In this document: piece by piece, positions 23,901 through 26,900 of the stretch
Layout: each line of letters begins with the position of its first letter
Numbering within the stretch: position 1 is the first letter of the stretch
Source: Octopus vulgaris
Lineage: Eukaryota
Assembly: GCA_951406725.2 (NCBI GenBank)
Contig: OX597817.1
Location: forward strand, 27,094,001 to 27,158,000
Reading direction: 5' to 3'
DNA: 64,000 nucleotides
Made by a program: the position numbers

Positions 23901-26900
23901 ACTGGTGAAAGATATCCTCAAACCAAAGACATCCTGAATGCTTGCAAAAAAAGTAGACTCCACTGAAGACACCCAAGATGTCAGTGCTGCAGTTAAAGTA
24001 GATATGGAAATTCAGTTGACTGTTTAGATTGACTAGATTTGCAGAAATGATAAAATATCTTCAATAAATTTTTCTGCATCTTCTCTCAAACTATCATATC
24101 ATTTCAGAAAGCCTTAAACACACCAGCATCAGTGGTCAAGCGATGTTTGGGGGGACAAATACAAACACACAAACACACATATATACATATATATGACGGG
24201 CTTCTTTCAGTTTCTGCCTACCAAATCCCCTCACAAGGTTTTGGTTGTCCCCAAGACAATAGTAGAAGACACTTGCCCAAGGTGCCATGCAGTGGGACTG
24301 AATCCGGAACCATGTGGTTGGTAAGCAAGCTACTTACCACACAGCCAGTCCTGTGCCTATAACATAAATTTTCACTCACAATTAATTTTGAATCACCAAA
24401 TGTGAATAGTGATTTTAAACTTTGCAATTACAGGTGTCTTTGATTTAGAAAGTAATTTAGTATGTTTAATAATCTGTTGTTTTTTGGAGCTTGTATGCTC
24501 AAGGGAAAAAATTTGAGGTAAACATGGACAAGAATGGTGAAGTTAAATCTCAAAACTGAGATTATGAAAGACTGTAATGATATGCAGTATGATAAACATA
24601 TTGTACTGAAGCTTGTTTGGATAAAATAAATGTTTGATGATGATGACGATGACGATGATGACGATGTTGATGACAACGACAGCTATAATGACAATGATGA
24701 TAGTGTGGTAGTTGATGTGATGATGATCAAGATGACGACAACAACATACGCAATATATTAATTGAAATAACACTTAGCACACTGTATTGTTATAACTGAA
24801 GAGGTAGCCTGACTAGCTCAGTCGGTAGAGCACGAGACTCTTAATCTCGGGGTCGTGGGTTCGAGCCCCACGTTGGGTGCAATATGCTTTCTACATTCAC
24901 GGAGTGGTTGGCGTTAGGAAGGGCATCTAGCTGTAGAAACACTACCAGATCAGACTGGAGCCTGGTGCAGCCTCCTGGCTTCCCAGACCCTGGTCGAACC
25001 ATCCAACCCATGCTAGCATGGAAAACGGACGTTAAACGATGATGATCATGATGATCATAATGATGATGTACCCAGTTAGAAATGTTTCAAGTAGTTATGC
25101 AATATGAAGTCATGCTCATTTGCATGCAGCAAGCACCAATAGTATCACTGATTTTTCTGCGTTGTTGACATGATAAAACAATCAGTAAAGTAAACCCATG
25201 AAAATGATGCAAGAATACTGGAATGTATGTAAACTGGTGGGGCTACAGACAGTAGAAGCATCTCATCAAAGCATAAAGAAACTGAAGGTGAATTTAATGT
25301 AGGAAGTAATATCTACAATAATAACGATAGTAATAGTGACCTGTCGGATAACAGTGAGAATAGTAGCAAAATTATTGGTGATGAGTAGAATATTGATAAC
25401 AAGGAAAAGAAAAGCAAGTTTCAGACACAAAATATTTGATCAAGTTAACAGTTCACCATCATCAGTACCTATGAGAATGTTTATCTTCTCTCCATTATAA
25501 ATAATCTCTCTAGAATGTTCCCATATCCTTTAACATACAAAATCAATTTTATTATTGCTTCTCTTTATGTTTAATCCAAAAATATCCCTAGCATTAATTG
25601 AATCTGTTTTTAACAAATTTCCACTGTGCTTCAACACCCACCCCAGCAGCACCATCATAATCTTACTTGCATGAGCCTTTTTATGAAACGTAATTGACCA
25701 ATAATTATTAAGGTACCTTGTCCATTTTAACCTTAGCCCCCCAAGCACTTACACCTAAAGACATAACTTCAACTGGTATGCTGTGTTTTACTATCTATAT
25801 TCCATTTTGTAATGGTCAGATTAATTCATGCTGTTGCCTCTAATTTCAGCTTCATTCTTTTGTCACAATTCCATTGCAGAATTCCATATTTAGATCATTT
25901 CACTTTGCTGCTTTATTTTCTCATTAGCCAAACTCTTCTACCGATATATATGAATCAATAGAGATAGTTAAAACCCCTATATTTGCCATCAGCAAAGACG
26001 ATTGTTTACAAGCCTTGTATTTTCTTAGTTATCTTCTTACACATCTCATGTTATTTCCGTCTATCTTCCTCTCCATATTCTCTAACCCTACATTTCTGTT
26101 TATACAACCAGTTACCAATTTCTATGATTCTTTTCACCAGTTAATACTGACAGCATATTAAACTCCTTAACTGAATTTTCTGTCAGTATGACATACAGCT
26201 ACCAATCTTTTTCCTACTTAATTTTCTTAACATATCTATCTCTGGTAATATGTTTCTATATTTAGTTATCAATCATCCTACATCTAAACTACTCTTCTCA
26301 AAGCAGAATGAAGGAGATTGAATGGATCACTTCATAAGCATATTTCCATGCATTTCTCTGTAACAAATATCATTTGAAAGATGTAAGTTTCTGAAGCCTA
26401 AATTAATTACACAGAATTTTCCTATTTTTTTCTCCTGCTTATGCACTCAGTGATAATCTTGCAATATTTTCATTCTTAATACCTACAGAAATTAAAGTGT
26501 CTAATGTACAGACCTTTATGGTTTTTAAAACACTGGGACAAAACACTCATTTATGTTCATATCCAACTCAGTTTTCAGTGTCCATCATACACAATACATA
26601 AATGTTTGTTGGCTGAGCAAATATAAAAAAAAAAGACATTCAGAAGCATTTCAGTCACTTGTAACTTGATTTTGGCAATTTATACAATGAGTAAAATTAA
26701 CTATAGTTAATCTGTAATGAATAATACTATGAATAATATAATAGTTAACAAAAATAATGAAATTCTAAAACTCCACCCATCTAACACCCGTGGACATATT
26801 TACAAAGTCAGAAAACAGCACAGCTCCCATGACATCAGGAAACATTTTTTCACGCTCAGAGTTGCTGAAGCATGGAACAAACTGCCGGCATCAGTTGTTA

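What the first reader, a model, noticed from the sequence alone, without database searches (positions are those of the whole stretch)
24807..25156. tRNA-Lys(CTT) fused to an RTE 3' tail without a terminator: a SINE at birth
Seen: a near-canonical tRNA-Lys with intact A and B boxes is followed 11 nt later, on the same strand, by a 5'-truncated RTE end complete to its (GAT)n tail. Only TTT follows the tRNA; the first T-run of 4 or more is at 25152-25156. Known: Pol III needs at least 4 T to stop, and SINEs are tRNA promoter plus LINE 3' tail. Inference: a ~350-nt Pol III read-through RNA would be a substrate for the RTE machinery, arising either from RTE insertion into the terminator or from an RT template switch onto the tRNA. 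No TSD is evident.
Basis: partly seen in the sequence, partly recalled or inferred. Interest (0 to 1): 0.75.

Follow-up and report, generated by a model that had tools for sequence, protein, structure and literature searches.

The report
tRNA-Lys joined to octopus retroposon tail
In an octopus genome, a lysine tRNA unit runs without a proper stop signal into the tail end of a very common jumping element, so it is built like a SINE, but this window alone cannot show whether it is a founder, an ordinary family copy or a chance neighbour.

Summary
The anatomy is real. A tRNA-Lys(CTT) lies at 24807-24879 (Rfam 62.9 bits, the only tRNA in the window). An 11-nt trailer ending in TTT follows, then 178 nt matching the 3' end of a repeat with 11 other copies in the window, ending in a (GAT)n tail. 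The next T run of four or more is at 25152-25156.

The "RTE" label is untested. The nearest relatives are short, non-coding elements of about 330-450 bp with 62-bp subrepeats, not LINEs. No reverse-transcriptase ORF lies in the window and no protein ends in this tail. Protein hits place the window in Octopus.

"At birth" is not supported. The tail differs from the family consensus at 6.7% of positions. The tRNA has three acceptor-stem changes against the human reference tRNA-Lys(CTT), two of them CpG transitions.

No target-site duplication (TSD) is significant for either boundary. The junction sits exactly at the end of the trailer's T-run. I therefore favour an RNA-level fusion by template switch onto a pre-tRNA, arriving as one retrocopy (about 0.55), over insertion beside a resident tRNA gene (about 0.3). 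Copy number could not be checked because no eukaryotic genome collection was available. It is a known kind of element, of modest interest.

The parts
24635..24751 (+). Degenerate (GAT/GAC/AAC)n microsatellite 55 nt upstream of the tRNA, in the same sense as the tail repeat. This is context and may be unrelated.
   Evidence: TRF rows for 24635-24673. BLAST similarity to other GAT arrays at 60514-60781 and 9443-9550. Sequence read.
24807..24879 (+). tRNA-Lys(CTT) unit with a full cloverleaf. The A box starts at 24814 and the B box at 24858. Against the human tRNA-Lys(CTT) printed in a paper it differs at linear positions 4, 6, 27, 43 and 72 (window 24810, 24812, 24833, 24849, 24878).
   Evidence: ARAGORN. 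Rfam 62.9 bits and alignment. Motif scan. Reference sequence seen in PMC8216282 and compared by eye.
24880..24890 (+). 11-nt 3' trailer ending in TTT (24888-24890). Together with the first two tail bases it reads TTTCT (24888-24892).
   Evidence: Sequence. T-run list. It has no homology to the repeat family, whose copies read GCACCCA at this place.
24891..25037 (+). 5'-truncated body of the (GAT)n-tailed short retroposon family (the 3' module). It includes the conserved terminal hairpin, whose palindrome lies at 25008-25021.
   Evidence: BLASTN against the window. Alignments A1 and A3. Divergence 10 of 150 from the consensus of the other 8 copies; nearest copies are at 30105 (93.3%) and 29098 (92.0%).
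25038..25068 (+). (GAT)n-type microsatellite tail with interruptions (GATCAT, AAT).
   Evidence: Sequence. All family copies end in the same repeat.
25152..25156 (+). First run of four or more T after the tRNA (TTTTT). This is the likely Pol III stop for a 350-nt read-through RNA.
   Evidence: T-run scan. Length computed.

Best explanation
The 262-bp unit (24807-25068) is a tRNA-Lys/retroposon-tail chimera that was most likely joined at the RNA level and arrived here as one retrocopy.

Proposed mechanism: during target-primed reverse transcription of an RNA of the abundant (GAT)n-tailed short retroposon, the reverse transcriptase left its template at the point that is now 24891. It continued on the 3' end of a Pol III pre-tRNA-Lys transcript, which still carried its trailer and ended in UUU.

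Shown: the anatomy, the homologies, the state of the tRNA and the absence of a T>=4 stop.

Inferred: the template switch, the retroposition of the whole unit, and the identity of the enzyme (an RTE-clade LINE is the likeliest partner but is not shown).

Within this reading I put about 0.35 on 'copy of an amplified, possibly already catalogued family' and about 0.2 on 'one-off or founder chimera'. As a SINE it would be a poor one. Its intact cloverleaf should be cut from the tail by RNase P and RNase Z, and its read-through RNA ends 84-88 nt beyond the tail.
For: 1. The junction lies exactly after the T-run of an 11-nt trailer. That is where a Pol III primary transcript ends. A DNA insertion would have to hit that spot by chance.
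2. The 11 nt before the tail are not repeated after it. The best tail-only repeat scores 1, a value reached by 1560 of 3000 random boundaries.
3. The tRNA and the tail look equally aged. The tail differs from consensus at 10 of 150 positions, of which about 2-4 are private by my reading. The tRNA differs from the human reference at 5 of 73 positions: three are in the acceptor stem, two of those at CpG, and one pair is compensatory.
4. The tail's nearest relatives are short-element copies, not a LINE. This fits the published PittSINE scenario, a switch from SINE RNA to a tRNA (PMC5729268, passages).
5. Sampling argument (inference). The window is about 1/44,000 of a genome of about 2.8 Gb (size), so a structure met in one window is more likely common than unique. 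O. vulgaris is reported to have 1317 SINE families, 4 of them tRNA-CORE-RTE.
Against: - No significant TSD flanks the whole unit. The best pair, TGAAGAGGTA / TGATGATGTA (8 of 10), is matched or beaten by 570 of 3000 random boundaries.
- No second copy of the tRNA part or of the junction exists in the 64 kb.
- None of the 15 library proteins matching the antisense ORF reaches the tRNA-derived residues, and all 5 Octopus vulgaris hits continue into the standard family sequence. This sampling is very thin.
- The tRNA part is unusually intact for a SINE head (62.9 bits).
- 5'-truncated copies of this family are common and dense here, for example 30048-30269 and 30270-30409. A plain insertion therefore needs no special event.
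- Copying a whole structured tRNA to its first base is demanding for a reverse transcriptase.
Confidence: 0.55

Rival explanations
1. A resident tRNA-Lys gene or pseudogene was hit at the DNA level. A 5'-truncated copy of the (GAT)n-tailed retroposon inserted into or just after the gene's T-run terminator, in the same orientation, leaving only TTT. The 'fusion' is then a neighbourhood accident.
For: - The family is dense: 11 other copies of at least 155 nt in 64 kb.
- It is often 5'-truncated at varied points.
- The trailer length and the T-run position are those of an ordinary tRNA gene.
- RTE-related elements are reported to cut near T stretches (PMC6007223, abstract and section 15).
- The flanks on both sides are unique sequence, as expected for a resident gene.
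Against: - No TSD surrounds the tail, although 2 of 11 family copies examined show clear 10-bp TSDs directly after the tail.
- The reported RTE signature puts the T stretch about 10 nt upstream of the TSD start, not flush with the element.
- By my estimate, about 5.5 same-strand copies per 64 kb give about 1e-3 per tRNA gene for a 5' end landing in the 12-nt window.
- The acceptor-stem G.U pairs suggest the tRNA is not under selection.
Confidence: 0.3
2. This is a sub-case of the best explanation, listed because it was the reader's own refutation test; its probability is nested within, not additional to, the best explanation's 0.55. The unit would be an ordinary member of an amplified tRNA-Lys-headed SINE family, catalogued or not. 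Candidates are one of the 1279 'unclassified SINE' families of O. vulgaris, or the OK family of Ohshima and Okada 1994. I only recall that paper and could not read it.
For: - The sampling argument: the window is about 1/44,000 of the genome.
- Very high SINE family diversity, and existing tRNA-CORE-RTE families, in O. vulgaris.
- The unit has every structural part of a simple SINE.
Against: - 0 other copies in the window.
- 0 of 15 protein-library hits carry the junction.
- The head is 68 of 73 identical to the human tRNA-Lys(CTT) reference. That is closer than I recall for most established SINE heads.
- No paper in the searchable library describes such an octopus family.
Confidence: 0.35
3. 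The insertion is larger than it looks. It would be bounded by the 9-nt repeat TGCAATATG (24878 and 25098), with CTTT as filler and 29 nt carried along 3' of the (GAT)n tail. The tRNA's true terminator would then be the TTTTT at 25152.
For: The 9-mer is the longest exact repeat between the two flanks, and it falls within the family's TSD length range.
Against: - The repeat is not significant: 50 of 2000 shuffles and 66 of 650 same-geometry window controls reach 9 nt.
- It is not adjacent to either end of the homology.
- It would make the T-run at the normal terminator distance a coincidence.
Confidence: 0.05

Closest known systems
PittSINE / TguSINE1 of passerine birds (founder model: template switch from SINE RNA to a tRNA during target-primed reverse transcription)
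   Same: A tRNA head joined to the LINE-type tail of an older SINE. The mechanism proposed there is the one I favour here (PMC5729268, passages).
   Different: There the chimera is inferred from an amplified family, it is flanked by TSDs, and its partner is a CR1 LINE. Here there is one locus, no supported TSD, an unknown partner and an octopus host.
tRNA-Lys-headed SINEs with LINE tails (salmonid Sma I and Fok I with SalL2; tortoise Pol III/SINE with PsCR1)
   Same: tRNA-Lys promoter module plus a LINE-derived 3' end (Table 1 of PMC3747384, seen).
   Different: Those are amplified families with L2 or CR1 partners. By my recollection their heads are diverged from the tRNA. The focal head is nearly intact and its copy number is unknown.
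tRNA-headed SINEs with RTE tails (AfroSINEs, Bov-tA, SINE2-1_EC; 'tRNA-CORE-RTE' families annotated in O. vulgaris)
   Same: tRNA head, short tail ending in a 2-6-nt microsatellite. Family copies here have 10-bp TSDs, inside the RTE-typical range of 7-15 bp reported.
   Different: No RTE sequence could be compared. There is no CORE domain between head and tail. The reported T-stretch signature could be seen in only 2 family copies.
The (GAT)n-tailed short retroposon family of this window (full copies at about 22620-22221, 39560-39158 and 53070-53441)
   Same: The last 150-178 nt match at 82-93% identity, with the same terminal hairpin and the same tail repeat.
   Different: The focal copy lacks the whole 5' part, including the 62-bp subrepeats and the GCACCCA just before the breakpoint. 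It has a tRNA and trailer in its place.
U6/L1 and other small-RNA/LINE chimeric retrocopies of mammals (recalled, not read here), and the octopus OK family of Ohshima and Okada 1994 (recalled, not held)
   Same: A Pol III RNA in sense orientation, complete to its own 3' end, fused to a 5'-truncated retroelement. For OK, I recall a tRNA-Lys-related octopus SINE.
   Different: Neither could be tested here: no sequences or text were available. L1 chimeras carry poly(A) tails and clear TSDs.

Membership tests
tRNA-derived SINE with a LINE-type tail | Internal Pol III promoter (A and B boxes) in a tRNA-related head | tested here: met
   Exact consensus matches at 24814 and 24858, unique in the window. 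Rfam tRNA 62.9 bits.
tRNA-derived SINE with a LINE-type tail | 3' end shared with an autonomous partner LINE | tested here: inconclusive
   The tail is shared with 11 short non-coding copies. No LINE ORF is in the window. No protein ends in the sense-frame peptide of the tail.
tRNA-derived SINE with a LINE-type tail | Many dispersed copies sharing the same head-tail junction | not testable with these tools
   0 further copies in the 64 kb, and 0 of 15 protein hits carry the junction. No eukaryotic genome collection was available.
tRNA-derived SINE with a LINE-type tail | Target-site duplication around the whole unit | tested here: inconclusive
   The best pair matches 8 of 10 and sits flush with both ends, but 570 of 3000 random boundaries do as well.
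RTE-clade LINE 3' end | Sequence homology to the 3' end of an RTE element | not testable with these tools
   No RTE sequence is held. The window has no RT or EN domain: 0 of 22 ORFs. Searches with the sense-frame peptide were empty.
RTE-clade LINE 3' end | Short microsatellite tail; TSDs of 7-15 bp; T stretch upstream of the TSD | tested here: inconclusive
   The (GAT)n tail is present. 2 of 11 family copies show 10-bp TSDs, each with a T4 run just upstream. This is too few to compare with the signature in PMC6007223.
(GAT)n-tailed short retroposon family of the window | 3' module with conserved terminal hairpin and (GAT)n | tested here: met
   82-93% identity to 8 copies. The inner hairpin is kept in 11-12 of 12 aligned sequences, including the focal one.
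(GAT)n-tailed short retroposon family of the window | 5' region with about 62-bp subrepeats | tested here: not met
   Absent. Homology stops at 24891. TRF finds the 62-63-bp units only in other copies.
Functional tRNA-Lys(CTT) gene | Cloverleaf, anticodon, conserved sequence | tested here: inconclusive
   The cloverleaf is complete. It is 68 of 73 identical to the human sequence printed in PMC8216282. G1.U72 and U4.G69 weaken the acceptor stem. No octopus reference tRNA was available.
Functional tRNA-Lys(CTT) gene | T>=4 terminator shortly after the gene | tested here: not met
   Only TTT at 24888-24890. The next T>=4 is 273 nt after the tRNA's last base.
Template-switch chimeric retrocopy | Small Pol III RNA in sense, complete to its native 3' end, fused to a 5'-truncated retroelement | tested here: met
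   tRNA plus trailer ending in TTT, directly followed by the truncated tail on the same strand.
Template-switch chimeric retrocopy | TSD around the chimera, and a source gene with the same trailer elsewhere | tested here: inconclusive
   The TSD is not significant. A source gene cannot be sought without the genome.

The most novel reading that the evidence does not exclude
This locus is the founder, or an early master copy, of a new tRNA-Lys SINE lineage. It would have been made when the reverse transcriptase copying a (GAT)n-tailed octopus SINE RNA switched onto a nascent pre-tRNA-Lys, and it would be preserved with the tRNA still almost intact. That would be a directly observed first step of SINE genesis in a genome that makes SINE families at an unusual rate.
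Probability: 0.08. Interest if true: 0.6.

Novelty: new member of a known kind. Interest (0 to 1): 0.3.

Why it matters
SINE families are thought to start as tRNA/LINE-tail chimeras, but founders are almost never seen because they are inferred backwards from amplified families. Octopus genomes carry an exceptional number of SINE families: 1317 are annotated in O. vulgaris. Loci like this one could therefore show how heads and tails are recombined. If the junction proves unique and the orthologous site is empty, it is a clean example of a template-switch chimera with a pre-tRNA acceptor. If it is a family member or an insertion next to a gene, it is routine repeat annotation.

Tried and rejected
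- **Copies of the junction among predicted proteins.** The antisense ORF over tail, junction and tRNA (81 aa) gave 5 of 5 Octopus vulgaris 'hypothetical' proteins, all continuing into the standard family sequence. The full-library phmmer search gave 15 hits, none reaching the tRNA part. This is too thin a sample to count as absence.
- **Sense-frame peptide of the tail.** It is open as far as the (TGA)n and was used as a possible LINE C-terminus. There were no hits among longer proteins or proteins of similar length.
- **Pfam.** 0 of 22 window ORFs reached a cut-off. Pfam on hits P0006-P0015 showed that P0006 is an unrelated secreted repeat protein, a spurious match.
- **Literature search for four sequence strings of the family.** 0 papers.
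- **Literature searches for an octopus tRNA-Lys or tRNA-RTE SINE**. Nothing specific came up.
- **Papers not held.** Ohshima and Okada 1994, Ohshima 1996, Ohshima 1993 and Albertin 2015.
- **TSD searches**. Nothing significant. The 9-mer TGCAATATG was considered and set aside.
- **Minimum-free-energy fold of the 350-nt read-through RNA.** It is no more stable than shuffles (z = 0.36), so it says nothing about processing.
- **Sub-threshold Rfam matches** (mir-297 and others). They lie on microsatellites and were ignored.
- **Collections not used.** The genome-contig scan was not used because that collection holds only bacteria and archaea.
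Full report
**1. The observation**

The window has no N. ARAGORN finds one tRNA in 64 kb: tRNA-Lys, anticodon CTT, at 24807-24880 on the + strand. Rfam places it at 24807-24879 with 62.9 bits against a gathering score of 29, and every acceptor pair is a standard pair. A permissive Rfam scan lists 149 matches at E<=10, and this is the only tRNA among them. Exact A-box and B-box consensus matches (motifs recalled) occur in the window only at 24814 and 24858.

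After the discriminator base come 11 nt ending in TTT (24888-24890). The next run of four or more T is TTTTT at 25152-25156, which makes a 350-nt unit. From 24891 the sequence is a repeat. BLASTN of 24807-25156 against the window gives eight other copies at 83.7-92.1% identity over 163-178 nt, three at about 75%, and several fragments. The first 84 nt (tRNA plus trailer) match nothing else apart from a 16-nt chance hit at E = 9.3. The repeat ends in a (GAT)n-type tail at 25038-25068.

**2. What the tail is**

The relatives in the window are not LINE fragments. They are short non-coding elements of about 330-450 bp. Their 5' part is built of subrepeats of about 62 bp, and all end in (GAT)n (TRF; alignment A1; sequences). 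Three copies share a common 5' start, and one of them (about 22620-22221, minus strand) is flanked by an exact 10-bp duplication.

More distant relatives at about 75% identity (60376-60546, 11135-10968, 37694-37541) carry other 5' parts with 24-26-bp subrepeats. The module shared by all of them ends in a conserved hairpin (palindrome at 25008-25021 in the focal copy). That hairpin is kept in 11-12 of 12 aligned sequences and nested in an outer stem. I take this as the likely recognition element for the reverse transcriptase; that is an inference.

The evidence on 'RTE' is as follows:
- The window has no ORF with an RT or endonuclease domain. There are 84 stop-to-stop ORFs of at least 90 aa. 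I sent the 22 that lie outside obvious simple repeats to Pfam, and 0 of 22 reached a cut-off.
- The sense frame of the tail is open up to the (TGA)n, but it matches no protein of any length class.
- RTE is the largest LINE group in Octopus vulgaris (106 Mb, 176 families; supplement Table S1).
- RTE elements typically end in short microsatellites (section 15 of PMC6007223; passages of PMC9115989).

'RTE' is therefore a reasonable guess, not a result. The focal copy's nearest relatives are the short-element copies at 30105 (93.3%) and 29098 (92.0%).

**3. Organism**

The antisense ORF over the tail (81 aa) hits 5 of 5 candidates named 'Hypothetical predicted protein [Octopus vulgaris]' at 61-91% identity. 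These are evidently repeat-derived gene models. The window is therefore from an Octopus or a close relative.

**4. State of the tRNA**

I compared the unit by eye with the human tRNA-Lys(CTT) printed in PMC8216282 (passage). It differs at 5 of 73 positions. Positions 27 and 43 change together and keep the pair. Positions 4, 6 and 72 lie in the acceptor stem and give U4.G69, A6-U67 and G1.U72. The changes at 4 and 72 are C-to-T at CpG.

I had no octopus reference tRNA, so I cannot say which of these are lineage-specific. Two CpG transitions that weaken the acceptor stem look like neutral decay rather than a gene under selection; that is an inference.

**5. The stop signal**

'Only TTT' is correct, but together with the first tail bases the junction reads TTTCT. 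In the human system, T3VT motifs are sub-optimal terminators, an isolated T3 is nearly inactive, and TTTCT is named as a poor signal (PMC3141230, abstract and passages). Most Pol III passage into the tail is therefore plausible. Some termination at the junction is too. Nothing is known for octopus.

**6. How the two parts came together**

Three readings fit:
- (a) A truncated retroposon inserted next to a resident tRNA gene.
- (b) The reverse transcriptase switched from the retroposon RNA onto a pre-tRNA, and the chimera integrated as one piece.
- (c) As (b), but long ago, and this is a daughter copy of an amplified family.

TSDs do not decide among them. The longest exact repeat between the flanks is the 9-mer TGCAATATG (24878 and 25098). 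It is not adjacent to the ends, and it is reached by 50 of 2000 shuffles and 66 of 650 same-geometry controls. The best repeat flush with the whole unit matches 8 of 10 and is reached by 570 of 3000 random boundaries. The best for the tail alone is trivial, reached by 1560 of 3000. Only 2 of 11 family copies show a clear TSD, so absence here is weak evidence either way.

What tips me towards (b) or (c) is the junction itself. The tail begins immediately after the T-run of a trailer of normal length, which is exactly where a Pol III primary transcript ends. The reported RTE insertion signature instead places a T stretch about 10 nt upstream of the TSD start, not flush with the element. The similar wear of the tRNA and the tail points the same way.

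Dense, frequently truncated family copies favour (a). By my estimate, the chance of a same-strand 5' end landing within 12 nt after a given tRNA gene is about 1e-3. That would allow a few such accidents per genome.

The sampling argument favours (c). One window is about 1/44,000 of a genome of about 2.8 Gb. O. vulgaris is annotated with 1317 SINE families, of which 1279 are unclassified and 4 are tRNA-CORE-RTE. 893 unclassified families have recent insertions (Table 1).

My split is: RNA-level fusion 0.55 (family member 0.35, one-off or founder 0.2), DNA-level insertion 0.3, and the rest other.

**7. Age**

The tail differs from the consensus of the other eight copies at 10 of 150 positions, or 6.7%. 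By my reading of that alignment, about 2-4 of these are private to the focal copy and the rest are shared with subfamily relatives. The O. vulgaris study equates a Jukes-Cantor distance of 0.065 with about 18 million years (passage). The join is therefore millions of years old, not nascent. A successful founder of that age should have daughters, which makes the copy count decisive.

**8. Would it work as a SINE?**

The promoter, the missing strong stop, the tail hairpin and the microsatellite are all present. Two things argue against efficiency:
- The intact cloverleaf should be released by RNase P and RNase Z, separating head from tail. This is established tRNA processing, recalled.
- The transcript would run 84-88 nt beyond the tail before it stops.

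A fold of the 350-nt RNA was uninformative (z = 0.36).

**9. Comparison and novelty**

tRNA heads on LINE tails are the standard SINE build. Published examples include tRNA-Lys heads (Sma I, Fok I, tortoise SINE) and RTE tails (AfroSINEs, Bov-tA) (Table 1 of PMC3747384). Head replacement by template switching is the published model for PittSINE.

In the searchable library I found no description of an octopus tRNA-Lys SINE with this tail. I recall the OK family of Ohshima and Okada 1994 as tRNA-Lys-related, but that paper is not held. The repeat library of PMC13282606 was not among the supplements I could see (one search shows one docx with a summary table only).

I file the locus as a new member of a known kind, of modest interest unless it proves to be unique.

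**10. What stayed unchecked**

No eukaryotic genome collection was on hand. The following could not be done: the copy number of the junction, the orthologous locus, a source tRNA gene with the same trailer, the LINE partner, and a tRNAscan-SE score.

Noticed in passing
window 52450-52873 (+), and about 15 further copies, e.g. 6744-6313, 1808-1405, 32080-31688, 33056-33478, 45223-45623, 59176-59599: A second, very abundant repeat of about 400 bp. Its 5' end reads like a diverged tRNA head with A- and B-box-like motifs, and it has an internal (TA/TG)n microsatellite. Rfam does not call it a tRNA even at E<=10.
   Followed up: partly
window 22221-22620 (-), 39158-39560 (-), 53070-53441 (+): Full-length copies of the (GAT)n-tailed short element share a 5' start and about 62-bp subrepeats. 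No tRNA-like head was detected, so how the family is transcribed is unclear. The copy at 22221-22620 has an exact 10-bp TSD (TGGAAACTGT) with a T4 run 4 nt upstream.
   Followed up: partly
window 30048-30409 (+): A 5'-truncated family copy (30048-30269) is followed directly, inside its (GAT)n tail, by a 5'-truncated copy of the more distant relative (30270-30409). This looks like insertion into another element's tail repeat.
   Followed up: no
window 60126-60781 (+) and 10914-11375 (-): Distant relatives of the tail (about 75% identity) carry 24-26-bp subrepeats upstream and very long (GAT)n arrays (up to 268 bp at 60514-60781). At 60257-60546 the tail module is partly duplicated in tandem.
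   Followed up: no
window 24635-24751: A 117-bp degenerate (GAT/GAC/AAC)n array lies 55 nt upstream of the tRNA in the same sense as the tail repeat. It shares the 10-mer ATGATGATCA with the focal tail. I could not tell whether this reflects targeting of GAT arrays or chance.
   Followed up: partly
window 24750-24756, 24879-24885, 25099-25105: The heptamer GCAATAT occurs three times around the unit: upstream of the tRNA, in the trailer, and 30 nt beyond the tail. The last two extend to the 9-mer TGCAATATG. This is not significant by shuffling.
   Followed up: yes
proteins P0001-P0005 (Octopus vulgaris 'hypothetical predicted proteins'): These annotated proteins are antisense translations of this repeat family, so they are probably annotation artefacts rather than genes.
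   Followed up: partly
window 24890-25039 (+): The sense frame of the tail module is open for 50 codons and is closed only by the TGA of the tail repeat. This recalls the report that the RTE-2_OV ORF ends where a microsatellite begins (PMC9115989). No protein match was found.
   Followed up: yes
window-wide, e.g. 17739-17977, 43072-43189, 44266-44383: Many sub-threshold Rfam microRNA matches (mir-297, mir-1277, MIR6135 and others) sit on TA/TG microsatellites and palindromic repeats. All are far below their gathering scores.
   Followed up: no
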